Source: Candidatus Dojkabacteria bacterium
GTDB lineage: Bacteria > Patescibacteriota > Dojkabacteria > SC72
Assembly (NCBI GenBank): GCA_012511375.1
Contig: JAAZGF010000017.1
Coordinates: forward strand, 1-28,956
Length of the DNA: 28,956 bases
Direction: 5' to 3'
This document shows, in pieces, positions 3-23,663 of this stretch. Every line of letters begins with the position of its first letter. The first letter of the stretch is position 1. The position numbers were made by a program, and so were the translations under genes. The notes beneath the pieces were generated by a model that did not search any database, was not told the origin of the DNA, and worked only from the letters and a program-made list of their open reading frames with translations.

Positions 3-962
3 GGTGATAATGCTAAAGGAAAAAGCTCTATCTTAGAAGCCATATACTTAATTACAAATGGAATATCTCCATGGGCATTTTCTAATGAATTCATATCATA
101 CAACCAGAAGGGTGAAAATAGATACTGCAGAGTTGAGATGGTTTTTAATGAAAAAATATACTCTCTCTTTAAAGATGAAAACAAAAAAATCCTCCAAATA
201 GACAAGAAGAAAACTACTCCGAAGAGATTCTTTGAGAAGAGTGCTTCTACTATCTTTAATCCAGAGCAAATAGAGATACTGATGATATCACCAAGCAAAC
301 GAAGAGATTTTTTGGATGAAACTATATCAATAATGGAATATGAATACTCTGCTAAGCTTAAAAATTTTAGAAAGATACTTAGACAAAGGAATGCCTATTT
401 AAAAAAATTGTCAAAAGATTTTTATGAAAAAGGTATAATCGCGAGAAATGATACTCAGTTAAACTTTTGGACTAACGAATTTGTAAATATATCAAAAGAT
501 ATACAAAAGAAAAGAGAACAACTCTCTAAAGAACTCTATTTTGACAAACTTAAAATGATCTATATTAAATCTAATAATAACGAGGACCTATCTGATGCAT
601 TAGAAGATTCAAAAAAGAGAGATATTGCAACAGGATATACAAACATCGGTCCACATAGAGATGATTGGATTCTCACTAACGGAAATGATATTAAAAAATT
701 TGGCTCAAGAGGAGAAAAAAGACTAGCTATTGGACAAATGATATTTAAAAAACAAGAAGTAATTGCAGAAAAACTTGGATTTCACCCCATTCTCCTACTT
801 GATGATATTGCATCTGAATTAGATGAAAAAAACACCGAAAAAATATTTGATAAAAAACTACTAAAAAGACAACAAACCTTTTTAACAATAATAAATCCTA
901 ATGATTTGCCAAAGGATGTCGTCAAGAATGCTCAACTTGTAGACTTAAATTCTTTTGAATAA
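3..962 (+). CDS. recF: DNA replication/repair protein RecF (5'-truncated by the window edge)
   Basis: The frame is open from nt 3 and reads GDNAKGKSSILEAIY (RecF Walker A), so the listed ATG at 138 is internal. It also contains SPSKRRDFLD, LRQRNAYLK, GPHRDD, FGSRGEKR and ILLLDDIASELD. Confidence 0.95.
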   Translation, partial: GDNAKGKSSILEAIYLITNGISPWAFSNEFISYNQKGENRYCRVEMVFNEKIYSLFKDENKKILQIDKKKTTPKRFFEKSASTIFNPEQIEILMISPSKRRDFLDETISIMEYEYSAKLKNFRKILRQRNAYLKKLSKDFYEKGIIARNDTQLNFWTNEFVNISKDIQKKREQLSKELYFDKLKMIYIKSNNNEDLSDALEDSKKRDIATGYTNIGPHRDDWILTNGNDIKKFGSRGEKRLAIGQMIFKKQEVIAEKLGFHPILLLDDIASELDEKNTEKIFDKKLLKRQQTFLTIINPNDLPKDVVKNAQLVDLNSFE

Positions 963-1726
963 TCACTTAGTCTTTTCTTTCTGTAATCATGTTCAAAAAA
1001 CTCTATTCTGCCTTTTTTTGAATTTTCAACTAATCTCTTCTTATCTGGATTATGCTTAGCCACTTCCATAAAAAGTAATTGAGCCCAAAAAGAAAGAGTA
1101 TTAATTACTCTTACAGGAAAGATTGTTTTTTTTGCATGAACTAGTTTGTTTCTTAATAATTCTTTCTTTACTCCATAATCTGTTATTAACCATTTGTTTT
1201 TAAAGTATATATTATTAATATATCCTTTTTTGTAAATAGGAATTAAGAACATAAGTTCATGGAAATTAAAAATATCATTTTCAAACTCTACTCCTCTTTC
1301 TTCACATATTAGGTTAAGACAAAGTTTGTTTTTAACCTGCTTATGTTTTTTAACCCTTATCTTCTTATGATAAATATTTCGGAACATTACAATAGCCCTA
1401 TATATCCACATAGTTCCATCCTTTACCACTACAAAAATATCTATATCATCTTCGTCTTTTACAAACCCAGCAGCTACAGATCCAGAGATACCTACGAATT
1501 TAACCCAATCAAAAAGCATTAGTTTTGAAATACCTTTTTTTGCAATATCTATTTTTACTTCTACATTTTGATTTTTCTCTTCTTTAAGTTTCTCTAATAT
1601 CTCTTTATCTAAACTTTTAAGAAACTTCTTTCCCCATATATATTTAACCTTATCTTTAGACAAAGAAACATTCATTAAAGATCTAAATTTGATTAGCTCT
1701 AAAAGCATTATTGTTCTTGGTTGCAT
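932..1726 (-). CDS. Pol-beta-superfamily nucleotidyltransferase-domain protein
   Basis: Motif FVGISGSVAAG-x5-DDIDIFVV (GS...DxD). The start is placed at ATG 1726 because a TATAAT (1733-1738) lies inside the longer ORF, 6 nt upstream of it. Confidence 0.75.
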   Translation of the reverse strand: MQPRTIMLLELIKFRSLMNVSLSKDKVKYIWGKKFLKSLDKEILEKLKEEKNQNVEVKIDIAKKGISKLMLFDWVKFVGISGSVAAGFVKDEDDIDIFVVVKDGTMWIYRAIVMFRNIYHKKIRVKKHKQVKNKLCLNLICEERGVEFENDIFNFHELMFLIPIYKKGYINNIYFKNKWLITDYGVKKELLRNKLVHAKKTIFPVRVINTLSFWAQLLFMEVAKHNPDKKRLVENSKKGRIEFFEHDYRKKRLSDYSKEFKSTS

Positions 1727-1797
1727 ACGTATATTATAGAGCATATATTAAGCATCTAAAACTTTTTCCAATATTCTGCTAAACTTTAGATAGAAAA

Positions 1798-1818
1798 TAT
1801 AATAGAATCTGCCTATAT
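1798..1818 (+). promoter_or_regulatory. -10 box and leader motif of the prgI operon (TATAAT-AG-AATCTGCCTA-TAT-ATG)
   Basis: TATAAT at 1798-1803 with an overlapping TAGAAT at 1803-1808. The same 10-mer sits at the same offset upstream of the Lon-like gene. Confidence 0.6.
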
Positions 1819-2661
1819 ATGAGACAGCATGCGATTCCTCACAATATATTAGATATAGAGTTTAAAATTTTTACAAAATTTACTCTAAAAGAATTTGCTT
1901 ATCTAGCAATTGGGATTGGTTTTGGAGCATTAATGATTTACTTAACAGCAAGAGGAGACGTTCCTGGTATTATTGGAATCCCTGTTTTTATCTTTTCCTC
2001 TATCTTAGGAATTATTTTAGGACTAGTACCTATCAACGAACAAGATGCAGATGTATTTATTAAAAACTTTATCACTGCTATAACTAATCCTACTCAGAGA
2101 GTTTGGTTAAACAAAGAAATGAATGATAAGAGGTCAAAACCAGAGATAAAACCAACAAAAGAAGGAGAAATAGTACACAAAGACGTTAAGATAAAAAGAA
2201 AGAAAATAATTGGAGCAACCTTACCTTCTCAGAAAAAGGATGATGATATTGCAGATCCCTTAGATGAGAAAAATTTACAAGTAGATCAGGAATTACTTGA
2301 ATCAAATATCAAAACAGTATCAGCAATTACTCCTAACAAGATAATAATAACAGATGAAAACAGGAGTGCTTATCAATTCCAGATAAAGAGTACTGATAAA
2401 TTACCTGGAAATATTAATATTTGGTTATGTACAAAAGAATTTAAACCCGTTCCCAATGTAGTTACATATCTTAAATCTTCCAATGGAACAGTGTTGTATG
2501 CAAATAAAGCTGGAAAGAATGGATACTTTCTTACAAGTAAGTTATGGGATCCTGGAATATATGTGTTAGAATTTGATCACCCTGTATACAAATTCCCTGA
2601 AGTACAGATAGAATTAACAGAGAAGGAGAACAAATTACCTATTAAAATAAGTAGTTTATAG
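1819..2661 (+). CDS. prgI: PrgI-family membrane protein (T4SS VirB3-like) with a C-terminal beta-sandwich domain
   Basis: N-terminus MRQHAIPHNILDIEFKIFTKFTLKEF followed by two TM helices and PINEQDADVFIKNF. The C-terminal domain resembles a carboxypeptidase-regulatory/Ig-like fold. It lies directly upstream of the TraC-like gene and virB4. Confidence 0.8.
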   Translation: MRQHAIPHNILDIEFKIFTKFTLKEFAYLAIGIGFGALMIYLTARGDVPGIIGIPVFIFSSILGIILGLVPINEQDADVFIKNFITAITNPTQRVWLNKEMNDKRSKPEIKPTKEGEIVHKDVKIKRKKIIGATLPSQKKDDDIADPLDEKNLQVDQELLESNIKTVSAITPNKIIITDENRSAYQFQIKSTDKLPGNINIWLCTKEFKPVPNVVTYLKSSNGTVLYANKAGKNGYFLTSKLWDPGIYVLEFDHPVYKFPEVQIELTEKENKLPIKISSL

Positions 2662-2662
2662 A

Positions 2663-3298
2663 ATGGATAAAAAAGCAAGAGCAAGAGCAACAGCATCAAC
2701 TCAAGAGCATCTCTCTGTAAGAGAGGTGATGGATGACTTAATACTTAATAAAAACGGAAGTGTTGCTATGGTAATACAAACATCCTCTATAAACTTTGAT
2801 TTATTAGCAGAGTATGAACAAGATAATAAAATATATGCCTTTGCGGGACTACTTAACTCTTTGAATTTTAGGATTCAAATCCTTATAAGAACACGTAGGA
2901 TTGATATTACTAATTATGTAGATTATCTCAAATCTCAGAAGAATAAGGCGATGAGTGAAGGCTTAAAAAGACAACTAGAAATCTACACTCAATTTATAGG
3001 TACACTCATATCTGAAAATGATGTTCTAGATAAAAGTTTCTTTTTGATAATACCATATAGCCCTGGAGTTCCATTACCTGGAACTAGTATATTGGATGCA
3101 AAGAAAAACAAAGAAGAGAGAGATAAATATAAAGATATGAAAAAAGAACAACTTGTAGAAAAAGCAAAGATGTACCTCTATCCTAAGCGAGATCATCTTC
3201 TCAAGCTATTAGGAAGAATGGGGTTGTTTGGTCATCAATTAACAAACAAAGAGTTAATTTCAGAATTCTATACATTATATAATCCAGAAGAGGAGTAA
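2663..3298 (+). CDS. TraC/TcpE-like VirB4-associated protein (resembles the N-terminal region of conjugative ATPases)
   Basis: STQEHLSVREVMDDLILNKNG...SSINFDLL..EQ...FAGLLNSLNFRIQILIRTRRIDI. It starts 1 nt after the prgI stop and ends 4 nt before virB4. Confidence 0.7.
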   Translation: MDKKARARATASTQEHLSVREVMDDLILNKNGSVAMVIQTSSINFDLLAEYEQDNKIYAFAGLLNSLNFRIQILIRTRRIDITNYVDYLKSQKNKAMSEGLKRQLEIYTQFIGTLISENDVLDKSFFLIIPYSPGVPLPGTSILDAKKNKEERDKYKDMKKEQLVEKAKMYLYPKRDHLLKLLGRMGLFGHQLTNKELISEFYTLYNPEEE

Positions 3299-3302
3299 AA
3301 TC

Positions 3303-5717
3303 ATGAATGAAAGAGATCAAAGTAGAACATATCAAAGTAAAGCCTCAAAGATGTTGGAAGATAGGGCTGAAAAAATTAAATCTCCTGCGGAAAAAACTTC
3401 TGAGTTCCAAGAATTGCTTAAAAAAGATGAAACAAGAAGAGATTCTTTTGATAGAAGATATGACGAACCAAAACCTATTGAAAAAGAAGATAAAAATCCA
3501 ATATTTAAATTGCTGGATAAATTAAGAAAGAATTATGAAAAGAAACAGAAAGATGAAGATGAAAAAGAACCTTCTACAAGAGAGGAAGAAGAAAACAGAG
3601 ATCTAAAAGAGAATCTTCCCACAGATATGTCTATTCAGGACATAATAGCTCCTATTGATCTAGAAGTAGACTTCAATCATCTCCAAATGGGAGATTACTA
3701 TTTTAAAACACTATTCATTAGTGGTTATCCTAGATTTGTAGGACCAAACTGGCTATCACCTATTATCAATTTTGAGCACTCTCTTAGAATTAGTACTTTT
3801 TACTACCCTGTTGAATCAAAAGTTATTTTAGAAAAGCTAAAAAAGAAAATAGGAGAGATGGAAGCTACTCTTTACACACAAATGGAGGAAAGGAAAGTTG
3901 TAGATCCTTCCCTTAAAGTAGCTCTGTCTGATGCTCAACAATTACAAGACTCAATAGCAGAAGGAACAGAAAAGTTTTTCCATTTCTCTATGTATATAAC
4001 CCTATATGCTAATGATAAAGAGGAACTAGAAAGAATAGGAAGAAATGTAACCTCTACCCTAGCTGCTATTAATGTCTCTGCTAAACCCGCTACATTACAA
4101 CAAGAGCAAGGCTTTATTAGTACACAACCATTGGGCTTGGACAATCTTTACATAACACGAAATATGGATACTACTTCTCTTGCAACTACATTTCCGTTTG
4201 TAACATCAGAATTAACAATGGATCATGGAATTATGTATGGTATAAACCTTCATAACAAGAGTTTGGTTATATTCGATAGATTTGATTTAGAAAATGCTAA
4301 TACTGTTATTTTTGCAAAATCTGGTGCTGGAAAAAGCTATTTCGTCAAATTAGAAGCAGTTAGAAGTTTAATGCTTGGAACTGAAATAATAATAATAGAT
4401 CCTGAAAGTGAATATCAAAGTTTATCAAAGGCAGTAAATGGAGCATACATCTCTTTCTCACAGGATAAAGGAAACAAGATGAATCCGTTTGAACTCTCGG
4501 GAGTAACAGATGAAGGAGATGATGAATTAAGAATGAAGTTATTAGCTCTTCAGGGATTCTTCAAAATAATGTTTGATGGAATAACAAACATTGAAGGTTC
4601 TATACTAGATAGAGCTCTAATTTTAACATACAGAGAAAAAGGAATTAACTTTGATCCTAGCACTCAAACAAATCCTCCTCCGATGCTAGAAGATCTTTAC
4701 AAAGTTCTAAAAGGAATGGCAGAGACAGAGGCTCATGCATTGGCCAAGAGACTAGAAAAATATATTATTGGTAGTGGTGCTGGTGTATTCAATGAGGCAA
4801 GTAACTTTGAAATAGTTAATCCATTTACAGTCTTTAGTATTAGAGATTTACAAGAAGAACTGAAACCTATGGCCATGTACCTAATGCTTGATTTTATATG
4901 GACTAGAATTAGAAAAAATAAAAAAAGAAGATTGCTCATAGTAGATGAGGCTTGGTATATGATGCAGTCAGAAGATTCAGCAAAATTTCTTTACTCTATT
5001 GCTAAAAGAGCAAGAAAGTATTACCTAGGCCTCTCTACTATAACACAAGATGTTGCAGACTTTCTTAATACAGATATGGGGAAAGCTATAATTTCAAACT
5101 CCTCTATACAATTACTTATGATGCAAAGTCCAACTGCTGTAGAAAAGCTTCAAGAGGTATTTAAACTCTCTGATGGAGAAAAGAATTTTCTACTTAGCTG
5201 CGAACAAGGACAGGGACTATTCTTTGCAGGAACAAATCATGTTGGTATACATGTGCTCTCTAGTGTCTCAGAACATGAGTTAATAACCTCAGATCCTAGA
5301 GACTTGGAAAGGATGAAGAAGAGAGAAGGAGAAACAGATACAAGAACGATAGAAGAACTCTCGCAAGTTTATGAGACTCCTGCAGAACAGAGAACCGTAC
5401 AAAGAACCGTAAACATAACCAGGCAGGAACAAATAATAGAGGATGCTATTAAAAAGACAGAGGATCGAAGAGGCATCTTACAGCAAGAGAGAAGTCAATA
5501 CCAAAAAGAATTAGAGGAAAGACTTAAACAAAAGGAGGAGGAATTATATCCTGAGAAAATGAACCTTCAAAAAACATATAAAGATCATCTTGAAGAAAGT
5601 ACTCTCTCTGGACAAATAATAAAATCTAGAGAAAATATACAGAAAGGTAGAAAACATTTAACACCACAAGGGACTGTAGAAAGCTATCCCTCAAAAGATA
5701 ATAACCCATATGAATAA
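3303..5717 (+). CDS. virB4: VirB4/TraC-like type IV secretion ATPase
   Basis: Walker A AKSGAGKS, IIIDPESEY, Walker B LLIVDEAWY, KRARKY, TITQDVADF, GQGLFFAG, and RNMDTTSLATTFPF. Confidence 0.92.
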   Translation: MNERDQSRTYQSKASKMLEDRAEKIKSPAEKTSEFQELLKKDETRRDSFDRRYDEPKPIEKEDKNPIFKLLDKLRKNYEKKQKDEDEKEPSTREEEENRDLKENLPTDMSIQDIIAPIDLEVDFNHLQMGDYYFKTLFISGYPRFVGPNWLSPIINFEHSLRISTFYYPVESKVILEKLKKKIGEMEATLYTQMEERKVVDPSLKVALSDAQQLQDSIAEGTEKFFHFSMYITLYANDKEELERIGRNVTSTLAAINVSAKPATLQQEQGFISTQPLGLDNLYITRNMDTTSLATTFPFVTSELTMDHGIMYGINLHNKSLVIFDRFDLENANTVIFAKSGAGKSYFVKLEAVRSLMLGTEIIIIDPESEYQSLSKAVNGAYISFSQDKGNKMNPFELSGVTDEGDDELRMKLLALQGFFKIMFDGITNIEGSILDRALILTYREKGINFDPSTQTNPPPMLEDLYKVLKGMAETEAHALAKRLEKYIIGSGAGVFNEASNFEIVNPFTVFSIRDLQEELKPMAMYLMLDFIWTRIRKNKKRRLLIVDEAWYMMQSEDSAKFLYSIAKRARKYYLGLSTITQDVADFLNTDMGKAIISNSSIQLLMMQSPTAVEKLQEVFKLSDGEKNFLLSCEQGQGLFFAGTNHVGIHVLSSVSEHELITSDPRDLERMKKREGETDTRTIEELSQVYETPAEQRTVQRTVNITRQEQIIEDAIKKTEDRRGILQQERSQYQKELEERLKQKEEELYPEKMNLQKTYKDHLEESTLSGQIIKSRENIQKGRKHLTPQGTVESYPSKDNNPYE

Positions 5718-5931
5718 TAAGCAAAATCTAAATATATCTAACTACCTTGTAACAGAGGCTATTGATCCTAAAACAATCCTTCCTGATAAAGTGAATTCAG
5801 ATTTGGAAGCCTTAAATAAGGCTGAAAGTAAAAGCACATATAAAACAAACATTGCAAGAAGTATAAAAAACCCTAAAGTACAAAGAGCTGTCTCTGCATT
5901 AAAATTAAGCAATCCATTCAAAGGATACTAA
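5710..5931 (+). CDS. Small hypothetical protein (73 aa) coupled to virB4
   Basis: The ATG overlaps the virB4 3' end by 8 nt and the stop overlaps the convergent Lon-like stop. The ORF fills the gap exactly. Confidence 0.55.
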   Translation: MNNKQNLNISNYLVTEAIDPKTILPDKVNSDLEALNKAESKSTYKTNIARSIKNPKVQRAVSALKLSNPFKGY

Positions 5932-7118
5932 CTCAGTGGACCTTGATCAGCAAGAACATACTCTCTCAAATTAGAACTATCTATTACAATTGGAAGTCTT
6001 TCTCCTTCTATTATCTTTCTTGCTGCACTTCTAACTATTGTAGTTATATTTCTCTCCAACTGCCTTATACCTGCATCAAAGCCTACCGGTCTAATAATTA
6101 AGGGCCATACATCTTCCTGTATCTGAATATATTCTGTTGATATGTTTAAATTCTTTAATACTTTAGGAAGGAGATACTGTTTCCCTATAACTTCCTTCTC
6201 CTGATCTGAATAACTCGTAAATCTAATAACTTCAACACGGTCAAGTAGAGCAGCAGATAATCCTCCTAGGTTATTTGCTGTACAAACAAAAAACACATTA
6301 GATAAATCAATAGGATAATCAATATAGTGATCTGTAAAAGCATGATTCTGTTCCGGATCTAATATCTCTAGAAGAGCTGCCATAACATCATTCAAAAGAC
6401 CCGAATTCCCACTAGATTTCTCTATTTCATCAAGAAGTATAACTGGATTCATAGTACCACAGTTAATTAAAGCCTTAACAATCTGCCCTGGTTCTGCATC
6501 TATAGAGTATCTTGGAGTACCTCTTATAGTTCTAACGTCCCCTATCGCTCCCAAAGAGACTCTTGCAAACTTTCTTCCCATTGAAATAGCTATGGACTTT
6601 GCAATAGAAGTTTTTCCAACACCTTGTAAACCAACAAAAAGAAAAACTGGAGCATTCGAAGATGACCCTTTTAATACCCCTATCTCTTGAATTCTGTTAA
6701 TTTCTCCATTAGAAGAAATAGGAACTTGACTAGGAAGGTTTCTACCCCTAACCCCACCCTCGCTTTCTAGCTGCATTGTTGCTAAGTAATCTAGAATTAA
6801 CTCTTTTATCACATCCATCCCATAATGCGTTCCATCCATTATTTTTTTAGCATTACTTATATCCAATCGATCTTCAGATAACACCCCCCAAGGAATTCTT
6901 GTAACCCAATCTATATACTTATTAACATTTTCAAACTCAGCACTGTATGCCCCCATTTGAAACATCCTTTTAAGTCTATTTATACTTCTCATACTTTCTT
7001 CCTTCAAAGCATCTGGAACTCTGGATGAAACAAGCTTGTTTTCGAGCTGTAAAACCTCTTTTAAGCCTTCATCCGTTACTATATTAGTATTGTTTCTATT
7101 TTGATTAGAATAATCCAT
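5928..7118 (-). CDS. lon: Lon-like AAA+ ATPase lacking the N-terminal domain and the Ser-Lys protease domain
   Basis: YIDWVTRIPW, THYGMDVIKELILDYL, Walker A GLQGVGKTS, Walker B ILLDEIEK, ALLEILDPEQNHAFTDHY, DLSNVFFVCTAN, LLDRVEVI, GIRQLER. The protein ends at SNLREYV, where the protease domain would begin. Confidence 0.88.
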   Translation of the reverse strand: MDYSNQNRNNTNIVTDEGLKEVLQLENKLVSSRVPDALKEESMRSINRLKRMFQMGAYSAEFENVNKYIDWVTRIPWGVLSEDRLDISNAKKIMDGTHYGMDVIKELILDYLATMQLESEGGVRGRNLPSQVPISSNGEINRIQEIGVLKGSSSNAPVFLFVGLQGVGKTSIAKSIAISMGRKFARVSLGAIGDVRTIRGTPRYSIDAEPGQIVKALINCGTMNPVILLDEIEKSSGNSGLLNDVMAALLEILDPEQNHAFTDHYIDYPIDLSNVFFVCTANNLGGLSAALLDRVEVIRFTSYSDQEKEVIGKQYLLPKVLKNLNISTEYIQIQEDVWPLIIRPVGFDAGIRQLERNITTIVRSAARKIIEGERLPIVIDSSNLREYVLADQGPLS

Positions 7119-7138
7119 ACTAGGCAGATTTAATTATA
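7119..7138 (-). promoter_or_regulatory. -10 box and leader motif of the Lon-like gene (TATAAT-TA-AATCTGCCTA-GT-ATG)
   Basis: Minus-strand TATAAT at 7133-7138 and AATCTGCCTA at 7121-7130. Confidence 0.6.
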
Positions 7139-7184
7139 TCTAAAGTGTATATTTACAAATTGATTAAGTCAACTATTAAAAGTA

Positions 7185-7213
7185 TTGATATTGTTACTCC
7201 CTCATGATAACCT
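7185..7213 (+). promoter_or_regulatory. Sigma70-type promoter of the surface-protein gene
   Basis: TTGATA (7185-7190)-N17-TAACCT (7208-7213), with an extended TGn. Confidence 0.45.
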
Positions 7214-7245
7214 TAACATAGATATAAAATAAACTGTCCATAAAG

Positions 7246-8520
7246 ATGAAAAAATTATATGTATTTTTCGCTTTTTTGTTTACCTTTTTACTTCCACTTT
7301 CTGCAATGGCAGCTGTAAATATTGCCTTAGATGATACATCTTCTAGCGAAGAATATAGTGTTTCCGTTTCCATTGATACGGGGATCGAAATGCTTGATAC
7401 TCTTGTTCTCCCAATAGAATTTTCTGACAATGTTGTAATCACAGATGTGCTTACAGGTAGTGTAATTTGTAGCAAGTTTGACTTTGTAGAAAATAATAAT
7501 ATTTTAACTATAACTTGTGAATTAGATACCCCATCATCCTTAAATGCTGTTTTAGCAAATATAGAATTTACATCTACTTCTGATGAGTATTCCTTTAAAG
7601 TTTTAGATGATAATTCTAGTTTAGATATAGGAGGTTTAGGTTTAGGGGCAATTACTAATATAGGTTCAACAGAAACTACTACTAACAGAATAGCAACAGA
7701 AGAGATTGATGCTATCCCTATAAATGAAGAAACTGAGGATGATTTTCTTGTAACATCTGACCAACCAGTAGAGGAAACAGCTTCTAGTACAGAAGGAATT
7801 ATGACTTTCCTGCCGTATATTTTAATAGGAGGATCAGTTGTTCTTTTGATTACCATCTTAGCTATTATATTCAGCAAGAAAGGAACATCAAAGAAGTCTG
7901 AATATATTCCTGTCGAAAATCCAACTCCTCAAGACAGTACTGTTCCTGTACAAAATGAAGAAAACACTTTAAAAGACATGGTTAATAATACTGCTACTCC
8001 TATTGAAGAGACACCTATACCTACTCCACCTGTACAAGATACTCCTGCTCCTGTTATGCCTACAATACAAGAGACACCAGCTCCTACTATGCCTCCAATG
8101 GAAGAGATTCCAATAAGTTCTGAACCTCTACAACAAGCACAACCAACAACAGAGGAACAAGATTTAGAGGAGATATTGAGAAGTGAAAATAGTACTCCTG
8201 TAGAACCAATGGGAATGCCTTCAAATACTCCTCCAGTACAACCAATGGATCAACCTGTTATCCATCCTGAAGCAATGCAACCTCAAACAATGGAGACAGT
8301 AGATGTTTCCTCACAACCACAACCATCTCCTGAAGATATGTTGTCTAATAATGTCGCAAGGGAATTAAATCAAATGCAAGATACAGGTAGTGGAATTGAT
8401 TTACAAGGGGGAATGCAAGAACCAGTTGAACCGCAGCCCACACAAGGATTTGATACTCCACAAGGAGGAGAAGTTGACCAACAAGAAGAGAGTATGCCCC
8501 CCATACCACCAACTATGTAG
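7246..8520 (+). CDS. Single-pass surface protein: signal peptide, cohesin-like beta-sandwich, TM helix, Pro/Gln/Thr/Glu-rich disordered tail
   Basis: Signal peptide MKKLYVFFAFLFTFLLPLSAMA, a beta-rich domain (YSVSVSIDTG...LANIEF), TM ILIGGSVVLLITILAIIF followed by KK, then a low-complexity C-terminus. The cohesin fold is inferred. Confidence 0.7.
   Translation: MKKLYVFFAFLFTFLLPLSAMAAVNIALDDTSSSEEYSVSVSIDTGIEMLDTLVLPIEFSDNVVITDVLTGSVICSKFDFVENNNILTITCELDTPSSLNAVLANIEFTSTSDEYSFKVLDDNSSLDIGGLGLGAITNIGSTETTTNRIATEEIDAIPINEETEDDFLVTSDQPVEETASSTEGIMTFLPYILIGGSVVLLITILAIIFSKKGTSKKSEYIPVENPTPQDSTVPVQNEENTLKDMVNNTATPIEETPIPTPPVQDTPAPVMPTIQETPAPTMPPMEEIPISSEPLQQAQPTTEEQDLEEILRSENSTPVEPMGMPSNTPPVQPMDQPVIHPEAMQPQTMETVDVSSQPQPSPEDMLSNNVARELNQMQDTGSGIDLQGGMQEPVEPQPTQGFDTPQGGEVDQQEESMPPIPPTM
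8002..8097 (+). repeat. Imperfect in-frame tandem repeat (30/33/33 bp; IEETPIPTPP / VQDTPAPVMPT / IQETPAPTMPP)
   Basis: gtacaagatactcctgctcctgttatgcctaca (8032-8064) versus atacaagagacaccagctcctactatgcctcca (8065-8097). Confidence 0.6.
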
Positions 8521-8526
8521 GAAAGG

Positions 8527-9093
8527 CTATTTAAAATTTTTCCACATATTACTGCCTTTTACCTTAAGGTCTCCTTTGTATTTGCTACCTAATCCTTTAC
8601 TCCCATAAGGCTTACTACAATCATCATCTAGCTCTTCAAAAGCAATTTGTGCTATCTTCATACCTGGATATATCTTTATAGGCAAAGGAGAAAGGTTTAC
8701 TAATTCCAAAGTTAATCTCAATTTATTCCCCGGATCTAAAAACCCAGCTGTTACATGAACAATTAAACCTAACCTAGCCAATGAACTTTTACCTTCTAAT
8801 CTTCCTACATGTCTAGAATTAACACCTGTTATCTCCTTAACATTGGCCAAAACAAGCTCATGAGGATGGATTATAATACCATCTGATGCCTTCTTAACAA
8901 CTATCTCTCTCATCAATCCCTTAGTTTTTTCTTTAACATCTATCATCCCTATACTCTCCTTGTTAAAAACCAAAAAATATTTATCTAAATGCAAATCATA
9001 AGATGCAGGTTGGAGGAACTCTTCAGAGAATGGTTCTATACATATCTCTCCTTTCTCCCTTTTCTCTTTAATACTTTTATCTGATAGTATCAT
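8527..9093 (-). CDS. dcd: dCTP deaminase (probably the dUMP-forming bifunctional type)
   Basis: MILSD, LQPASYDLHL, EGKSSLARLG, HVTAGFLDPG, TLELVN, GMKIAQI, PYGSK...KY. Confidence 0.93.
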   Translation of the reverse strand: MILSDKSIKEKREKGEICIEPFSEEFLQPASYDLHLDKYFLVFNKESIGMIDVKEKTKGLMREIVVKKASDGIIIHPHELVLANVKEITGVNSRHVGRLEGKSSLARLGLIVHVTAGFLDPGNKLRLTLELVNLSPLPIKIYPGMKIAQIAFEELDDDCSKPYGSKGLGSKYKGDLKVKGSNMWKNFK

Positions 9094-14734: not shown

Positions 14735-15196
14735 ATGAGGGACACAGAATTTTTAGAAAATATTCTTTATGATTTATGGGAAAATCATTTTTGTGATGTA
14801 CCCAGACATAATCTTGTTATTATAAAATATGGTAAGTTCTCTAAAAGACAGCTAGGGTCCATTAAAATAGCAAATAGTAAAACAAAAATTAAAAAAATGT
14901 TAAAAGAGAAATGGAATGATCTTTTAGCTCAGGATGATAAAAGTATTACCGTTATTACTATTTCCAGATATTTCCAAAACGAGATTATCCCTGAATTTGT
15001 TCTAAGAGCAGTAGTTGCTCATGAACTTTGTCATTATACTCATGGTTTCAGTTCTCCACTAGAAAAAAGATTTAATAATCCACACCAAGGGAGTGTTGTA
15101 AAGAAAGAACTTAAAAAAAGAGGTCTTTGGGAAGAACAAGAGAAAGCAGATGAGTGGATTGAAAAGCATTGGAGAAGGATAGTATCAGGAAAGTAA
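14735..15196 (+). CDS. SprT-like zinc metallopeptidase-domain protein (HExxH)
   Basis: VVAHELCHYTHG, KRQLGSI, upstream beta-strand ITVITISR, and downstream PHQG. Confidence 0.7.
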   Translation: MRDTEFLENILYDLWENHFCDVPRHNLVIIKYGKFSKRQLGSIKIANSKTKIKKMLKEKWNDLLAQDDKSITVITISRYFQNEIIPEFVLRAVVAHELCHYTHGFSSPLEKRFNNPHQGSVVKKELKKRGLWEEQEKADEWIEKHWRRIVSGK

Positions 15197-18096: not shown

Positions 18097-18675
18097 TTAC
18101 CTAATTACTACCTTTTCTTCGATTAATTCTATATTTTTTATCTCTCTTCCAAGAAATTCGTTTTCATTTAAAAGAGTTATAGCCTCCCTTATCCCTTTAT
18201 TAATATTTCTCTCTGTCTTCTTGCCTACTCCAAAGTAGAGAGGAGTGTTTCCAATACTTAAGTTTTTTACATATATCTCAGAGGTCTCTCTATCATCTTT
18301 CACAATATCTAGGACCAACCAAGGCATTGTAACAGCTTTTACCTCATACTTAACTAATATCGTCCATTCCCCCTTTGAACTTAATATACAAAGGTCTTTT
18401 AAGTGAACTTCTTCTCCTTTTTGCATACTTCCTTCTAAAATGTATATGATTTCATCAGTATCAAGTACTACAAATTCAGTTTTGTTGTTAGAAAGAACAA
18501 ATTTCTTAAACTTTTCCTCTACTTTTTCTTGATCTACTTGAACGCTTTGTAAACACCTCAATCCTTTTTTTTGGAAAAACTCTTTTTCCCATCCTTTGTA
18601 CTTAAGAACATTAAAAGAAATTAAGAAGATGAAAAGTAAAAAAATTGTTAAAAAAAATGTTCTAAGCAATTTCAT
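18097..18675 (-). CDS. Hypothetical single-pass membrane protein
   Basis: N-terminal TM anchor FFLTIFLLFIFLISF followed by a soluble domain; overlaps the murJ 3' end by 14 nt. Confidence 0.7.
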   Translation of the reverse strand: MKLLRTFFLTIFLLFIFLISFNVLKYKGWEKEFFQKKGLRCLQSVQVDQEKVEEKFKKFVLSNNKTEFVVLDTDEIIYILEGSMQKGEEVHLKDLCILSSKGEWTILVKYEVKAVTMPWLVLDIVKDDRETSEIYVKNLSIGNTPLYFGVGKKTERNINKGIREAITLLNENEFLGREIKNIELIEEKVVIR

Positions 18676-20545: not shown

Positions 20546-21253
20546 GTGGATATTCTAGACGTTTTTTTCCCTAAAAGTTGTACCATATGTAAAAGAAAAG
20601 GGGAATATTTATGTGATAAATGTAAAAAATTGTTTAAAAGAAATTTACCCGAATGTTATCTCTGTAGAAGAATTTCTTCTAATTACAAGACGCACGATAC
20701 TTGTAAAAAGGGTAATTCTCTAAATTATGTTTTTGTTGCTTGGAAATATGACTCCTTCTCATCCAATATTATAAAGAAGTATAAATACAAAAGTGTATAT
20801 ACTGTTTCTGATGTTTTGGTGGAATTTTTAATAGAAAGTCTCTCTAATTCCTCTTTTAAAGATATTATGAAGGATAGTTTAATCACAAATGTCCCTATCT
20901 CATCAGTTAGGTTGCATGATAGAGGTTTTAACCAAACAGAAGAATTTGCAAAAGAAATAGCAAAGTTTTTAAATCTTAGATACTCAGGAGACCTTATAAT
21001 GAGAAAAGTAGAATTTGGACATCAGTCTCTCAGAGATAAAGAAGAAAGAAAAGAAAATTTAGAGAAAGAGTTTTATATTAAAAAAAAGATAGATTTAGAA
21101 AAGGAGAAGAGTATTACTATCGTTGACGATGTACTTACAACAGGAGCAACGCTAGAAGCAATTGTCGATACTATAAGGGAAAGCTACAATACAGACATCG
21201 ATATAAATGCTATATGTATGTTTAGAGGAAGACCTTATTACTCTATAAACTGA
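20546..21253 (+). CDS. comF: ComF-family protein (double zinc ribbon plus phosphoribosyltransferase-like domain)
   Basis: FFPKSCTIC...LCDKC...CYLC, RGFNQ, IVDDVLTTGATL; GTG start. Confidence 0.9.
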   Translation: MDILDVFFPKSCTICKRKGEYLCDKCKKLFKRNLPECYLCRRISSNYKTHDTCKKGNSLNYVFVAWKYDSFSSNIIKKYKYKSVYTVSDVLVEFLIESLSNSSFKDIMKDSLITNVPISSVRLHDRGFNQTEEFAKEIAKFLNLRYSGDLIMRKVEFGHQSLRDKEERKENLEKEFYIKKKIDLEKEKSITIVDDVLTTGATLEAIVDTIRESYNTDIDINAICMFRGRPYYSIN

Positions 21254-23622
21254 GTGCCGTCTTTCTCTAATCCATCTAAACCTAAATCTATTTGGTCATC
21301 TTCTTCATGTTTTGGGATTTCTATAGCCTCTGGTTCTTTTGTAGTATCTCCTGTAAGTTCCCTCTTTGTTGACATGTCATTTAGCTCTGAAGCTATCTCT
21401 TGGTATATTTCTAGTTCTATTAGCCCTTCATCTTCAAGTATCTTTTTTGCTGCTTTAAGATAGGCTTCGTACATATCCATATCTCCCATTTCTTTGTTAA
21501 TATTGGCAACTAATACTATGGACGGGATATGGTAAGGATTTATTGTTAAAACATTGCTTAAAGACTCTAGGGAGCTCTGCATATCTTCTTTCACCAAGAA
21601 TACCTGTGCTCTATAGAAGTGTAGGTTATAATTAATAGGATTTAACTGTAGAGCATTCTCTATTGATGTCAGAACTTCTCCTTCGTTATCAGATATACCA
21701 AGCTCTATCAAAAGCATATATAAACTCGTATTTACATCTCTATTAGCATAAATATATGGTGCTGCTGTTATACTTTTTTTACTTAATTCCAAAGTATTAT
21801 TTTTCCAAAATATTATATCGCTTAACATAGTATCACTCTCTTCTGTTTCTGGATCTCCTTCTGTTTTCTGTATTAATTCACTGTATGCCTCAACCTCCAA
21901 AACTAACCTTTCTGCATATGCTAAAGATAGTTTTCTAAGGAACAATGGATTGTTTTTATCATAATCAACACTCTTTGAGCGAAGCTCCATTAACTTTTGT
22001 ACAATTGCTGCTCTTTCCTCTTCTGTAGGATCCTGCTCCTGATATCTTAATGATTCTTCTGTTGTATAAGCTTCTGCTTTTAGAGTATATATACTTGCGA
22101 TACCCTTTGAAAACCAGAATGTCGTCAATCCTCCAAAAACAATTACTGCAACAACACTTAACAAAATACTAAGGTTAGAAACATAGGGTTTTGTGCTATT
22201 CCTAACGCCTAAATCTACTGTCCAAAACTTAATTATATACCTATCATCACTATCTTTATTCAACAAATTCTTGATTACAGCTTTTAGTGATATTAAAAGA
22301 AGAAGTGTGAAAAGAATAATGGTTGAATATGTTACAAAGAGAGAAGAAAGATATATCAACACTATAGCCATATTAACTACAACTAACCTCCAGTTATTAA
22401 CCGCATCTTTACTTAATTTAATCTGTTTTAAATCATTCCAAAAAGTTCTTCCAATCAAATAGCCAAAGAACAACCAAATCAGGAACCACACAAGACCTCC
22501 ATTAGTCAATAGGGTGAATATTTCCGCTCCTGCTTTATAGAATGTTATATCGTTAAATGTTAATAGACTTACATCCATGGGCCTGTACAGATTGTATGCT
22601 ATTGAAAATGTATCTATCCCAAGTCCTACAATGGCTCTACCAAAAGAGGAAACCAAAACAGAAGATGAGACTATCCAAGAAATCTGACTTCCCAAATTTA
22701 TCTCTGTCAAAAGATTAAAATTTTCTGGAAGAATATTTTCTCTAACCGTTGGAATCTGAAGAAGAGAGAATGGTATTAAGATTAGTAATGCTGTAACAAG
22801 GCAGAATATTAAAATCTCTTTTGATGTTCCTTTCTCTAAGCTAACTTTCTTAGTAAGGAAAACAGAGAACAAGATTAAAAGAGCTATAGATAGTAATACT
22901 ATGTATAAACCTTGACTGAGAGAGAAGATAACAATATTAAATATTATTAGAATACCTGAGATAGCTGCAAATACTAATTGTCCTACTTTCTCTTTCTTAA
23001 TAAAATATTCTCCTATCAAACTAACACAGAGAAACAGATTCACAAAATTGAGAATGAGATGAATTCCTGCTGACCTGATTAAAGGAACTCCCCCTAAGTA
23101 CAAAGATTTGTATATAGGTATGAAACTCCAAATATTTACACCGAAAAAGGAAATTGCACTTAAAATATTATTGATAAGAAGCCCTGCTGCAAAAGAAAAT
23201 ATTACATATTTTAAATCTCGTTCTGTTTCTAAAAACGTCCTAGAACTTATTGTTACCAACAAAATGGAAAGAAATGATACAAGCCCACCACCCAATCTAG
23301 CATCTACTCCCCATAAACTTGTATTTATATCTACAGAAAAGATAGTAGAGAGAAGCATAGCAAATAACAAAAGGAAGAGCCCTACATCTAAAGCACTCTT
23401 TAAAATATTTGTTTTTCCTTCCCATATCAATTTCAAAAACTCTATCGCTGTTATTACTGTTGCAAAGACTAAGATGAGTATAGACATACTCCTTTCAGTC
23501 CAGTCCCAAGGAAAGGGGAATATTGCAAGAGGGAGAAGAAATAGTAAAGCCCTAAAGAGGTAATTTTGCACTTTAGAAAAGGTTAGTGCTCCTCTTTGAT
23601 TTTGAATTTGATCTTGCAACAT
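21238..23622 (-). CDS. Polytopic O-antigen-ligase-like membrane protein with C-terminal TPR repeats
   Basis: About 13 TM helices, GLGIDTFSIAY periplasmic-loop motif, and TPR-like C-terminal helices (NALQLNPINYNLHF, NVLTINPYHIPS). Confidence 0.7.
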   Translation of the reverse strand: MLQDQIQNQRGALTFSKVQNYLFRALLFLLPLAIFPFPWDWTERSMSILILVFATVITAIEFLKLIWEGKTNILKSALDVGLFLLLFAMLLSTIFSVDINTSLWGVDARLGGGLVSFLSILLVTISSRTFLETERDLKYVIFSFAAGLLINNILSAISFFGVNIWSFIPIYKSLYLGGVPLIRSAGIHLILNFVNLFLCVSLIGEYFIKKEKVGQLVFAAISGILIIFNIVIFSLSQGLYIVLLSIALLILFSVFLTKKVSLEKGTSKEILIFCLVTALLILIPFSLLQIPTVRENILPENFNLLTEINLGSQISWIVSSSVLVSSFGRAIVGLGIDTFSIAYNLYRPMDVSLLTFNDITFYKAGAEIFTLLTNGGLVWFLIWLFFGYLIGRTFWNDLKQIKLSKDAVNNWRLVVVNMAIVLIYLSSLFVTYSTIILFTLLLLISLKAVIKNLLNKDSDDRYIIKFWTVDLGVRNSTKPYVSNLSILLSVVAVIVFGGLTTFWFSKGIASIYTLKAEAYTTEESLRYQEQDPTEEERAAIVQKLMELRSKSVDYDKNNPLFLRKLSLAYAERLVLEVEAYSELIQKTEGDPETEESDTMLSDIIFWKNNTLELSKKSITAAPYIYANRDVNTSLYMLLIELGISDNEGEVLTSIENALQLNPINYNLHFYRAQVFLVKEDMQSSLESLSNVLTINPYHIPSIVLVANINKEMGDMDMYEAYLKAAKKILEDEGLIELEIYQEIASELNDMSTKRELTGDTTKEPEAIEIPKHEEDDQIDLGLDGLEKDGTQFIE

Positions 23623-23663
23623 TAGTGGCAGTTATAAAATATTAGTCGAATAAATACTAACAT

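What the first reader, a model, noticed from the sequence alone, without database searches (positions are those of the whole stretch)
1819..8520. Domesticated minimal T4SS-like module: prgI-traC-virB4-small ORF, convergent protease-less Lon, and a cohesin-like surface protein
Seen: a tightly coupled operon (gaps of 1 and 4 nt, overlap of 8 nt) encodes conjugation-type PrgI and VirB4. It is flanked by housekeeping genes (recF, dcd) with no relaxase, VirD4, integrase, att repeat or obvious composition shift. Established: Patescibacteria carry conserved T4SS-like genes thought to act in host interaction. Inference: the AAA+-only Lon and the anchored surface protein are accessory parts of the same apparatus, for example an unfoldase or remodeller and an adhesin. 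The shared leader motif reported separately supports this.
Basis: partly seen in the sequence, partly recalled or inferred. Interest (0 to 1): 0.75.

Follow-up and report, generated by a model that had tools for sequence, protein, structure and literature searches.

The report
Known Patescibacteria secretion operon with unrelated neighbours
The four-gene PrgI–TrsD–VirB4–small-ORF operon is the already described chromosomal type IV secretion core of Patescibacteria, while the protease-less Lon and the cohesin-like membrane protein beside it look like neighbours by local rearrangement rather than parts of the machine.

Summary
ORFs, spacings (1 nt, 4 nt, 8-nt overlap), domains and housekeeping flanks are as described, and a model of the surface protein's ectodomain matches cohesin modules.

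The core operon is a single-copy, vertically inherited gene set. The VirB4 ortholog is in 120 of 121 genomes of the class and 191 of 201 of the phylum. PrgI and TrsD lie upstream throughout. This relaxase-less, origin-proximal T4SS of Patescibacteria was published in 2025 (PMC12102498).

The accessory idea is not supported:
- The Lon-like AAA+ belongs to an old short paralog family that coexists with full-length Lon in other classes.
- It is next to VirB4 only in the window's order, in 22 of 30 loci.
- Elsewhere it lies directly downstream of pnp, in 21 of 32 phylum genomes.
- 128 of 201 phylum genomes have VirB4 but no Lon-like match.
- The surface protein is detectable only in the window's genus.
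- The shared leader motif also precedes many unrelated genes.

New here: an order-wide small ORF after VirB4 ending in NPF(K/R)G, and a divergent pore loop in the short Lon family.

The parts
932..1744 (-). Nucleotidyltransferase-like ORF (270 aa), divergent from PrgI. It is a conserved neighbour and is not shown to be part of the machine.
   Evidence: Weak Polbeta and NTP_transf_2 hits under their cut-offs. Found next to PrgI in 28 of 30 order loci and in 3 of 20 class loci (L159, L170, L171) by tblastn.
1806..1815 (+). Leader motif AATCTGCCTA, ending 3 nt before the PrgI start codon.
   Evidence: Exact 10-mer at 1806-1815. There are 3 exact copies in the 588-kb genome, and 2 of them stand just before the PrgI and Lon starts. 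Kept before PrgI in 9 of 10 other loci of the genus with at most one change, but not in other genera.
1819..2661 (+). PrgI/VirB3-like membrane protein (280 aa) with a C-terminal extension.
   Evidence: PF12666 30.7 bits over residues 6-95. Two hydrophobic segments at 26-44 and 51-69. Ortholog upstream of TrsD-VirB4 in 29 of 30 order loci and 17 of 20 class loci.
2663..3298 (+). TrsD/TraD-like protein (211 aa), resembling the N-terminal part of long VirB4 proteins.
   Evidence: NF041427 32.5 bits and NF045975 positions 99-233, both far under their cut-offs. Found directly upstream of VirB4 in 30 of 30 order loci and 19 of 20 class loci at 39-90% identity. PMC12102498 names TrsD as the most abundant VirB4-linked component.
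3303..5717 (+). VirB4-type T4SS ATPase (804 aa).
   Evidence: NF045971 391 bits (cut-off 325) and PF19044 99 bits. A-K-S-G-A-G-K-S P-loop and LLIVDE Walker B read from the sequence. Single copy in the genome. Present in 120 of 121 class and 191 of 201 phylum genomes.
5710..5931 (+). Small hydrophilic ORF (73 aa) that overlaps the VirB4 stop by 8 nt. It belongs to an order-wide family ending in NPF(K/R)G.
   Evidence: Homologous small ORF directly after VirB4 in 27 of 30 order loci and 0 of 20 class loci (jackhmmer on 71 candidate ORFs). In the alignment of 19 sequences, D31, L32, N68, P69 and F70 are invariant. No Pfam or NCBIfam hit. No hydrophobic segment.
5928..7118 (-). Short Lon-like AAA+ ATPase (396 aa) with no N-terminal LON domain and no S16 protease domain. 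It is a neighbour, not a part of the operon.
   Evidence: AAA and Lon_lid hits; TIGR00763 positions 255-567 of 795. Best solved relative is B. subtilis LonA, 3m6a. GLQGVGKT and VILLDE motifs. Pore-loop-1 Tyr is not conserved in the short family. Present in 120 of 121 class genomes in frames of about 350-510 aa. Directly downstream of pnp in other classes.
7121..7130 (-). Second exact copy of AATCTGCCTA, ending 2 nt before the Lon start codon.
   Evidence: Related forms stand before Lon in all 10 other loci of the genus.
7246..8520 (+). Genus-specific type-I membrane protein (424 aa): signal peptide, cohesin-fold ectodomain, TM helix, and a Pro/Gln/Glu/Thr-rich tail that ends in PPIPPTM.
   Evidence: Hydrophobic segments at 6-24 and 192-210; tail is 18% P, 11% Q, 12% E. 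AF2 model and cohesin matches. 22 database relatives, none with a Pfam domain. Homologs only in the genus. Conserved TM and C-terminal motif seen in the printed sequences.

Best explanation
The interval holds three things of different age and kind.

(1) A four-gene operon, PrgI(VirB3)-TrsD-VirB4-small ORF. This is the inner-membrane ATPase core of the chromosomal, relaxase-less type IV secretion system that nearly all Patescibacteria inherit vertically.
- Shown: gene content, order, tight coupling and near-universal orthology.
- Inferred: PrgI anchors a VirB4 hexamer in the membrane, and TrsD supplies a VirB4-N-terminal-like module.
- Inferred: the core works with the VirB2-like pilins encoded elsewhere (six in tandem on contig C112) as a pilus or translocon for host interaction, not for conjugation.
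- This follows the Southlakia epibionticum system, which is essential for epibiotic growth.

(2) A short Lon-derived AAA+ ATPase. It belongs to an old Patescibacteria paralog family and is not a local truncation. Its conserved home is directly downstream of rpsO-pnp and upstream of rnj. In the window's order it was moved to a convergent position beside VirB4. It has intact ATPase motifs but a non-conserved pore-loop-1 aromatic residue. I therefore read it as a housekeeping remodeller rather than a Lon-type processive unfoldase or a T4SS part.

(3) A fast-evolving, genus-restricted, membrane-anchored cohesin-fold protein. It is most likely a surface anchor or adhesin of its own.
For: T4SS core:
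- Domains and spacing.
- Single VirB4 in the genome.
- VirB4 in 39 of 41 relatives, 120 of 121 class genomes and 191 of 201 phylum genomes.
- recF-NTase-PrgI-TrsD-VirB4 order across all five families of the order.
- PrgI in 17 and TrsD in 19 of 20 class loci.
- No composition shift.
- T4SS_pilin array on C112 plus one on C82, and a VirD4-like ORF far away on C40 beside smpB and a Xer-type recombinase.
- Contrast: a same-genus genome carries a second VirB4 (31% identity) inside a complete element with a DUF11/SdrD adhesin, TrbL/VirB6, an M23 peptidase, a Rep-like HTH, a T4CP-like ATPase and Replic_Relax.
- Literature: PMC12102498 sections 13 and 14; passages of PMC10633639 and PMC12857230 on essentiality in S. 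epibionticum.

Lon:
- Short frames in 120 of 121 class genomes.
- A strong Lon_C hit in only 1 of 121 (G072, 8% contamination). The other hits score 17-45 bits in frames of mostly about 430-550 aa.
- In other classes, short (349-417 aa) and full-length (about 780-880 aa) forms occur in the same genome, for example G213, G189, G156 and G154.
- pnp lies directly upstream and co-directional in 21 of the 32 non-class genomes where both rows were listed.
- infB-rpsO-pnp-Lon-(udg)-rnj was confirmed by Pfam, including in family f2 of the window's own order (L188).
- Pore-loop alignment.
- 128 of 201 phylum genomes have VirB4 but no Lon-like match at 1e-30.

Surface protein.
Against: - Within the window's family the VirB4/small-ORF/Lon arrangement is very stable. 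All 25 family genomes in the class sample have Lon within 2.3 kb of VirB4.
- A convergent VirB4/Lon pair 3.2 kb apart recurs in a family of another order (G044, G091).
- 12 further same-contig cases lie 5-30 kb apart, more than chance would give in genomes of 0.6-1.1 Mb.
- PrgI and Lon share an exact 10-mer immediately before their start codons, plus an upstream CTTTAGATA block, conserved across the genus. Lineage-specific co-regulation is therefore not excluded.
- Conserved synteny with pnp is itself only a neighbourhood argument.
- VirB6 was not found with PF04610, so the apparatus described is incomplete. The genome is 92.9% complete and lies in 115 contigs.
- No experiment bears on this organism.
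Confidence: 0.8

Rival explanations
1. One reading: the AAA+-only Lon acts as an unfoldase or remodeller and the anchored cohesin-like protein as an adhesin of the same T4SS-like apparatus.
For: - Immediate adjacency in the window and in all 25 family genomes of the class sample.
- Lon lies within the flank in 22 of 30 order loci.
- Exact shared 10-mer before the PrgI and Lon starts; a looser form (AAACTGTCC) stands before the surface-protein start.
- Contigs from RNA libraries of 3 studies cover parts of all six genes. This is compatible with expression only and gives no strand or level.
Against: - Lon is convergent and the surface protein is separately oriented, so neither is in the operon.
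- Families f2 and f5 of the same order lack Lon near VirB4. In f2 Lon sits in rpsO-pnp-Lon-udg-rnj, and dnaK follows VirB4.
- In closed or near-closed class genomes the two genes are 290-640 kb apart. Outside the class they are never adjacent.
- 128 of 201 phylum genomes have the VirB4 ortholog without any Lon-like match.
- The pore-loop aromatic residue needed for Lon-type unfolding is not conserved.
- The surface protein is confined to one genus and is replaced by an aminotransferase elsewhere.
- The leader motif precedes many unrelated genes.
Confidence: 0.08
2. Regulon reading: in this genus only, the short Lon and the surface protein have been drawn into a common envelope regulon with the T4SS core and type IV pilus genes. 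The link is the TATAAT-N-AA(T/A)CTGCC leader, with no physical membership of the apparatus.
For: - AATCTGCCTA occurs 3 times in 588 kb, twice directly before the PrgI and Lon starts, and is conserved across the genus.
- The looser motif lies within 0-9 nt of a start codon at 32 of 293 sites, against the one or two that my rough estimate would expect.
- The 23 first-ATG ORFs include PrgI, Lon, the surface protein, two prepilin-like ORFs, a 601-aa ORF that I read from its N-terminus as PilB-like, and several ORFs with N-terminal hydrophobic segments.
Against: - The same list holds ORFs that look like an ABC ATPase, a metallo-beta-lactamase RNase and a phosphoglycerate mutase (read from N-termini; only the last was Pfam-tested, as L200 21-1319).
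- The motif may simply be a common short leader or start-site context.
- It is not seen before PrgI or Lon in the other genera of the family.
- The promoter scan is at chance level (34 found against 29.3 +/- 5.7).
Confidence: 0.1
3. The block is part of an ordinary integrative conjugative element.
For: VirB4, PrgI and TrsD are conjugation-type families. The genome does hold a VirD4-like ORF and a tyrosine recombinase on another contig.
Against: - No relaxase, T4CP or integrase in the 28.9-kb contig.
- No tRNA and no convincing flanking repeat. Same GC as the flanks.
- Orthologs are near-universal, in fixed synteny with recF.
- The recombinase scores best as Xer-type.
- PF03432 and PF13814 found nothing in the genome. 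The PF13814 control also rang nowhere, so that one is uninformative.
- A true element of the same genus looks quite different.
Confidence: 0.02

Closest known systems
Chromosomal T4SS of Patescibacteria ('Patescibacteria clade' of VirB4; Quinonero-Coronel et al. 2025, PMC12102498; the essential T4SS of Southlakia epibionticum, Wang et al. 2023, PMC10633639)
   Same: - VirB4 with PrgI/VirB3 and TrsD directly upstream.
- No relaxase nearby, and the T4CP homolog encoded far away.
- Tandem VirB2-like pilin genes.
- Location beside replication genes (here recF).
- Near-universal, vertical distribution (paper sections read).
   Different: - The pilin array is not next to virB4 in this fragmented assembly (C112).
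- No VirB6 was found by PF04610.
- There is an order-specific small ORF ending in NPF(K/R)G after VirB4. It is not mentioned in the parts of the paper I read.
- The paper's supplementary tables (S3, S4) could not be opened and may list it, or AAA/Lon families near virB4.
MPF-FATA conjugative T4SS of Gram-positive plasmids (pGO1/pSK41 TrsC-TrsD-TrsE; pCF10 PrgI-PrgJ). These system names are recalled and are also as given in PMC12102498.
   Same: The VirB3-like, TrsD and VirB4 gene order and families. The best NCBIfam model is the clostridial CD1110 VirB4 family.
   Different: No relaxase, no adjacent coupling protein, no PrgB-type adhesin and no mobile-element borders. It is a core chromosomal gene set.
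LonA protease (B. subtilis LonA, PDB 3m6a)
   Same: The helical pre-AAA segment and the AAA+ module with the Lon lid align over residues 21-117 and 153-388. Walker A and B, the sensor and the arginine finger are kept.
   Different: - No N-terminal LON substrate-binding domain and no S16 protease domain.
- Pore-loop 1 reads TPRYSID, QSKAFLD, QSKVNAD and similar, where the two full-length Lons in the alignment have RRTY(V/I)G.
- It is a separate paralog that coexists with full-length Lon in other classes.
- No curated NCBIfam model reaches its cut-off.
Cohesin modules of cellulosomal and non-cellulosomal scaffoldins (e.g. 6kgd_A, 2xdh, 1g1k_A)
   Same: The predicted beta-sandwich of residues about 23-140 matches cohesins as the top Foldseek hits (E 5e-6 to 1e-4; TM-score on the target 0.58-0.65).
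   Different: - 10-19% identity and no Pfam Cohesin hit for this protein.
- A single module on a type-I membrane anchor with a long Pro/Gln-rich cytoplasmic tail.
- Dockerin binding is untested. The genome holds only one borderline dockerin ORF.

Membership tests
Patescibacteria-clade chromosomal T4SS | VirB4-family ATPase with P-loop and Walker B | tested here: met
   NF045971 391 bits against a cut-off of 325. AKSGAGKS and LLIVDE motifs in the sequence.
Patescibacteria-clade chromosomal T4SS | VirB3/PrgI and TrsD encoded directly upstream of virB4 | tested here: met
   PF12666 is over its cut-off. The TrsD model matches weakly, under its cut-off. Order is conserved: TrsD in 30 of 30 and PrgI in 29 of 30 order loci; TrsD in 19 and PrgI in 17 of 20 class loci.
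Patescibacteria-clade chromosomal T4SS | Vertical, near-universal, chromosomal; no relaxase in the cluster | tested here: met
   120 of 121 class and 191 of 201 phylum genomes. No relaxase family in the window. PF03432 finds nothing in the genome. PF13814 finds nothing either, but its control was silent.
Patescibacteria-clade chromosomal T4SS | VirB2-like pilin genes, often in arrays | tested here: met
   Seven PF18895 matches over the cut-off: six in tandem on C112 and one on C82. Linkage to virB4 cannot be judged in this assembly.
Patescibacteria-clade chromosomal T4SS | VirB6-like polytopic membrane protein | tested here: not met
   PF04610 gave no match in the 92.9%-complete genome. The paper reports that VirB6 is scarce or undetectable in some classes.
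Integrative conjugative element | Relaxase, coupling protein, integrase and att borders around the T4SS genes | tested here: not met
   The VirD4-like and Xer-type genes lie on another contig.
LonA protease (S16) | C-terminal S16 protease domain | tested here: not met
   No Lon_C hit in the protein or anywhere in the genome. The ORF ends after the lid, and the DNA downstream is occupied by the 73-aa ORF and VirB4.
LonA protease (S16) | N-terminal LON substrate-binding domain | tested here: not met
   No PF02190 hit at E<=0.01. The TIGR00763 match starts at model position 255.
LonA protease (S16) | AAA+ module with Lon lid and conserved ATPase motifs | tested here: met
   PF00004 67.7 bits and PF22667 35.9 bits. 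Alignment to 3m6a. Motifs conserved in 20 aligned sequences.
LonA protease (S16) | Pore-loop-1 aromatic-hydrophobic pair (the Tyr of RRTY(V/I)G) | tested here: not met
   Variable in the short family (TPRYSID, TPRHEID, QSKAFLD, QSKVNAD, QSRMHPE). It is kept in the two full-length Lons aligned. The name of the motif and its role are recalled.
T4SS accessory component (claimed for the short Lon and the cohesin-fold protein) | Linkage to virB4 conserved beyond close relatives | tested here: not met
   Lon: 22 of 30 order loci; 2 of 25 same-contig cases outside the order lie within 5 kb; none are adjacent outside the class. Surface protein: 10 of 30 order loci, one genus only.
T4SS accessory component (claimed for the short Lon and the cohesin-fold protein) | Co-occurrence with virB4 across genomes | tested here: not met
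   Within the class both are near-universal, so that comparison is uninformative. Across the phylum, 128 of 201 genomes have VirB4 without a Lon-like match at 1e-30.
Cohesin module | Cohesin beta-sandwich fold | tested here: met
   AF2 model with pLDDT 87-97 over residues 21-140. Cohesins are the top Foldseek PDB hits.
Cohesin module | Sequence membership (Pfam PF00963) and dockerin binding | tested here: inconclusive
   No PF00963 hit for this protein at E<=0.01. Another ORF of the genome does hit it (C102, 25.1 bits). One borderline Dockerin_1 ORF with RCC1 repeats lies on C58 (24.7 bits; 21.7 bits, under the cut-off). Binding is not testable here.

The most novel reading that the evidence does not exclude
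The short, protease-less Lon-like AAA+ is not debris. It is a distinct Patescibacteria-wide paralog with intact ATPase motifs and a divergent substrate pore loop, and its ancestral place is between pnp (PNPase) and rnj (RNase J). It may therefore work with the RNA-decay machinery, or as a protease-independent remodeller. In the window's whole class it is the only Lon-type protein left. In the window's genus it has in addition acquired the same start-proximal leader as the T4SS operon.
Probability: 0.3. Interest if true: 0.6.

Novelty: new member of a known kind. Interest (0 to 1): 0.3.

Why it matters
- The T4SS core of Patescibacteria is one of the few machines shown to be essential for their epibiotic life. 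Knowing which neighbours truly belong to it keeps later work from chasing false partners.
- This analysis removes two proposed partners, the short Lon and the cohesin-fold protein.
- It adds one candidate: the small ORF coupled to VirB4 that ends in NPF(K/R)G.
- It also points to an uncharacterised, widely conserved AAA+ family whose steady partner is pnp, not virB4.

Tried and rejected
- Complex prediction of VirB4 (alignment A3) with the 73-aa ORF (alignment A2) gave 'no answer' (best score 0.28, mark 0.32). It is neither support nor evidence against binding.
- The promoter and terminator scan of 1600-8700 was at chance level (34 against 29.3 +/- 5.7; 5 against 4.0 +/- 1.9).
- The search for att-like direct repeats gave only short, imperfect two-copy families.
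- The search for related loci with the Lon-like protein returned five short forms and then mostly full-length Lon genes of other phyla. I used it only for record names ('Candidatus Dojkabacteria' at 73% identity, a record labelled 'Candidatus Saccharibacteria' at 65%) and for frame lengths.
- PF13814 (Replic_Relax) found nothing in the own genome, but its control rang in no genome, so it is uninformative.
- PF04610 (TrbL/VirB6) found nothing.
- Literature: 'Candidate Phyla Radiation' + 'Lon protease' gave 0 papers. 'Patescibacteria' + 'Lon' + 'AAA+' gave 0 papers. Whole-word searches for Lon, AAA, recF, protease, cohesin and nucleotidyltransferase inside PMC12102498 gave 0. Lon, AAA and cohesin inside PMC10633639 gave 0.
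- RNA-library contigs (X3-X6) cover scattered pieces of all six genes. Bins without cover, contig ends and depths were not interpreted. DNA carry-over cannot be excluded, and contigs show no strand.
- The Atlas search only showed that short AAA+Lon_lid clusters with generic automatic names exist in other candidate phyla. It is a lead, not evidence.
- I considered that the Lon gene is a recent truncation. I rejected this because the short form occurs in 120 of 121 class genomes and coexists with full-length Lon elsewhere.
- I considered that the 73-aa ORF is a VirB2-like pilin. I rejected this because it has no hydrophobic segment.

Distances between genes were read and subtracted by me from the printed rows. 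Rows beyond the 150 listed per call could not be seen. As a result, pnp could not be placed for six phylum genomes with a short Lon (G152, G291, G340, G243, G220, G264).

Full report
WHAT IS THERE

The window is one whole contig (C86, 28,956 bp) of a 588-kb genome in 115 contigs, 92.9% complete. The closest named public records are labelled Candidatus Dojkabacteria.

- 1819-2661 (+): PrgI-like. PF12666 is over its cut-off, and there are two hydrophobic segments.
- 2663-3298 (+): a 211-aa protein.
- 3303-5717 (+): VirB4. NF045971 scores 391 bits against a cut-off of 325.
- 5710-5931 (+): a 73-aa ORF.
- 5928-7118 (-): a convergent 396-aa AAA+ protein with a Lon lid and no protease domain.
- 7246-8520 (+): a 424-aa protein with no family hit.

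The 211-aa protein hits only TrsD/TraD and the N-terminal part of a long VirB4 model, both weakly. It is TrsD-like rather than TraC-like. The gaps of 1 nt and 4 nt and the 8-nt overlap are as stated.

The flanks, and the whole rest of the contig, are housekeeping genes: recF, dcd, thyX, glyA, folD, an ABC exporter, groES/EL, murJ, dnaK-grpE-hrcA and L25. There is no tRNA, no convincing flanking repeat and no GC shift (0.339 against 0.330).

THE OPERON IS THE KNOWN PATESCIBACTERIA T4SS CORE

- VirB4 is single copy in this genome.
- Its ortholog is found in 39 of 41 relatives, in 120 of 121 genomes sampled from the class at 48-87% identity, and in 191 of 201 genomes sampled from the phylum at E<=1e-30.
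- In 30 loci of the order, TrsD precedes VirB4 in 30 and PrgI in 29. The divergent nucleotidyltransferase-like gene and recF lie upstream in all five families.
- In 20 loci from other orders of the class, TrsD is there in 19 and PrgI in 17.

The rest of the apparatus is elsewhere in the genome:
- Six tandem VirB2-like pilin genes on C112 and one on C82.
- A weak VirD4-like ORF on C40 beside smpB and a Xer-type recombinase.
- No relaxase by PF03432 and no VirB6 by PF04610.

All of this matches the description by Quinonero-Coronel et al. 2025 (PMC12102498; sections 13 and 14 read):
- TrsD and PrgI/VirB3 next to virB4.
- T4CP far away.
- Pilin arrays.
- Almost no relaxases.
- Location near replication genes.

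Passages of Wang et al. 2023 and of a 2025 review say that the Southlakia epibionticum system is essential for epibiotic growth and probably does not conjugate.

A useful contrast comes from a genome of the same genus. It has a second VirB4 (31% identity) inside a complete element with an adhesin, VirB6/TrbL, an M23 peptidase, a replication-type HTH protein, a T4CP-like ATPase and a Replic_Relax protein. The window's operon has none of these.

A FOURTH MEMBER OF THE OPERON

- A small ORF homologous to the 73-aa ORF follows VirB4 directly in 27 of 30 order loci and in none of 20 loci from other orders. The E-values hold only for that small set of 71 candidate ORFs.
- In an alignment of 19 sequences the invariant positions are D31, L32, N68, P69 and F70, and the C-terminus reads NPF(K/R)G or NPFRDE.
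- The protein is hydrophilic and has no family.
- It travels with VirB4 in families f2 and f5, where Lon is not nearby. It therefore belongs to the operon, not to Lon.
- A fold of VirB4 with this protein gave no answer (reported under Tried and rejected only).

THE SHORT LON

The genome has no Lon protease domain anywhere. This is not a local accident.

- A Lon-like gene in a frame of about 350-510 aa is present in 120 of 121 class genomes.
- A strong Lon_C match occurs in only one of them, a 2.3-Mb bin with 8% contamination. The other matches score 17-45 bits in frames of mostly about 430-550 aa, which I take to be other families. I did not test this.
- Across the phylum, 64 of 201 genomes have a Lon-like match at 1e-30.
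- Many genomes of other classes carry both a short form (349-417 aa) and a full-length Lon (about 780-880 aa).

So the short form is a separate, old paralog. Its ATPase motifs are conserved. The pore-loop-1 sequence, RRTY(V/I)G in the two full-length Lons aligned, is replaced by variable sequences, several without an aromatic residue.

Its link to VirB4 is local:
- In the order, Lon lies in the fetched flank of VirB4 in 22 of 30 loci.
  - It is immediate in the genus and in most of the family.
  - An ABC transporter, an M23 peptidase or a uracil-DNA glycosylase lies between them in some loci.
  - It is missing from the flank in families f2 and f5, and in one f4 locus with a short flank.
- Outside the order there are 25 genomes where both best matches are on one contig. 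Two have them 3.2 kb apart, 12 have them 5-30 kb apart, and 11 have them more than 30 kb apart. In closed or near-closed genomes the distance reaches 290-640 kb.
- Outside the class the same-contig distances are 27-157 kb.
- 128 of 201 phylum genomes have the VirB4 ortholog and no Lon-like match at all.

By contrast, the short Lon has a steady partner elsewhere.
- In 20 loci where it is not next to VirB4, clustering of neighbours and Pfam gave infB-rpsO-pnp-Lon-(udg)-rnj, co-directional, in 7 of them. These include other classes and family f2 of the window's own order. Another 7 had L25-Lon.
- In the phylum sample, pnp lies directly upstream and co-directional, 32-2,632 nt between match ends, in 21 of the 32 non-class genomes for which both rows were listed. 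Ten have the two genes on different contigs and one has them 15 kb apart.
- In the window's genome, rpsO-pnp, rnj and udg are on other contigs.

The simplest history is that the gene moved from the pnp neighbourhood to a convergent position beside VirB4 within this order.

THE SURFACE PROTEIN

- It has a signal peptide, an ectodomain of about 120 aa, an acidic/Thr-rich linker, one TM helix and a 212-aa tail (18% Pro, 11% Gln, 12% Glu) that ends in PP(V/I)PPTM in most relatives.
- The ectodomain model is confident (pLDDT 87-97), and its best PDB matches are cohesins.
- The family is tiny: 22 database proteins without Pfam domains.
- It is detectable only in the genus, at 31-48% identity. Other genera of the family have a class-V aminotransferase in that slot.
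- The genome also has a second cohesin ORF and one borderline dockerin/RCC1 ORF. This suggests an independent cohesin-dockerin anchoring role, which is untested.

THE LEADER MOTIF

- AATCTGCCTA occurs three times in the genome, and two copies end 2-3 nt before the PrgI and Lon start codons.
- Both copies are preceded by TATAAT-like and CTTTAGATA blocks and are conserved across the genus.
- This is the best point in favour of co-regulation.
- However, the looser form A[ACT]CTG[CT]C stands within 0-9 nt of a start codon at 32 of 293 sites. It precedes 23 first-ATG ORFs of mixed kind, and it is not seen before PrgI or Lon in other genera of the family.
- I read it as a common short-leader context, possibly an envelope-biased regulon, and not as a T4SS signature.

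EXPRESSION

Contigs assembled from four RNA libraries of three studies match pieces of all six genes at 95-100% identity. One contig bridges the TrsD/VirB4 junction, and two bridge VirB4 and the 73-aa ORF. Contigs show neither strand nor level, and DNA carry-over is possible. This only says that the locus is compatible with being transcribed.

VERDICT

- The 'domesticated T4SS-like module' is right but already in print.
- What is new is modest: an order-specific small operon member, and the recognition that the short Lon is a distinct, pnp-linked paralog with a divergent pore loop.

Noticed in passing
window 5928-7118 (-); loci L184, L188, L190, L195, L196: The short protease-less Lon paralog sits co-directionally between pnp (PNPase) and rnj (RNase J), often with a uracil-DNA glycosylase between Lon and rnj. 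This holds in several classes of the phylum: 21 of 32 phylum genomes have pnp directly upstream.
   Followed up: partly
window 1806-1815 (+), 7121-7130 (-), 7229-7237 (+), about 23627-23634 (-): A start-proximal motif, AA(T/A)CTG(C/T)C, 2-6 nt before ATG and usually a few bases after a TATAAT-like box. Across the genome it precedes PrgI, Lon, the surface protein, the 794-aa ORF, prepilin-like ORFs and others. 32 of 293 sites are start-proximal.
   Followed up: partly
window 932-1744 (-): A nucleotidyltransferase-like ORF lies divergent from PrgI in all five families of the order and in two further families of the class (3 of 20 class loci). It is a more persistent neighbour of the T4SS operon than Lon.
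   Followed up: partly
G000 contigs C58 (L199 3-995, -) and C102 (L200 1435-2046, +): The genome encodes a borderline Dockerin_1 plus RCC1-repeat protein, cut by the contig end, and a second small cohesin-domain protein. These are possible partners in a minimal cohesin-dockerin surface system with the window's cohesin-fold protein.
   Followed up: partly
L064 (G002:C1): A genome of the same genus carries a complete conjugative-element-like T4SS cluster with a second VirB4 (31% identity), a TrbL/VirB6, an M23 peptidase, a T4CP-like ATPase, a Replic_Relax protein and a 1,134-aa DUF11/SdrD adhesin.
   Followed up: partly
L051 9774-10580 (-), L052 5874-6536 (+): In family f4 an M23 peptidase with an N-terminal hydrophobic segment lies between the VirB4/small-ORF pair and Lon. 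It is a possible VirB1-like cell-wall hydrolase, as the literature describes downstream of virB4 in S. epibionticum.
   Followed up: no
window 21238-23622 (-), 27186-27953 (+), 18097-18675 (-), 14735-15196 (+): Four ORFs without a Pfam family. The 794-aa one has weak TPR-type NCBIfam hits only and carries the start-proximal motif.
   Followed up: no
window 3303-3600 and 5300-5717 (+): The VirB4 of this family has a charged, low-complexity N-terminal extension of about 100 aa and a C-terminal extension of about 130 aa. VirB4 frames in other orders are shorter, mostly about 600-700 aa.
   Followed up: no
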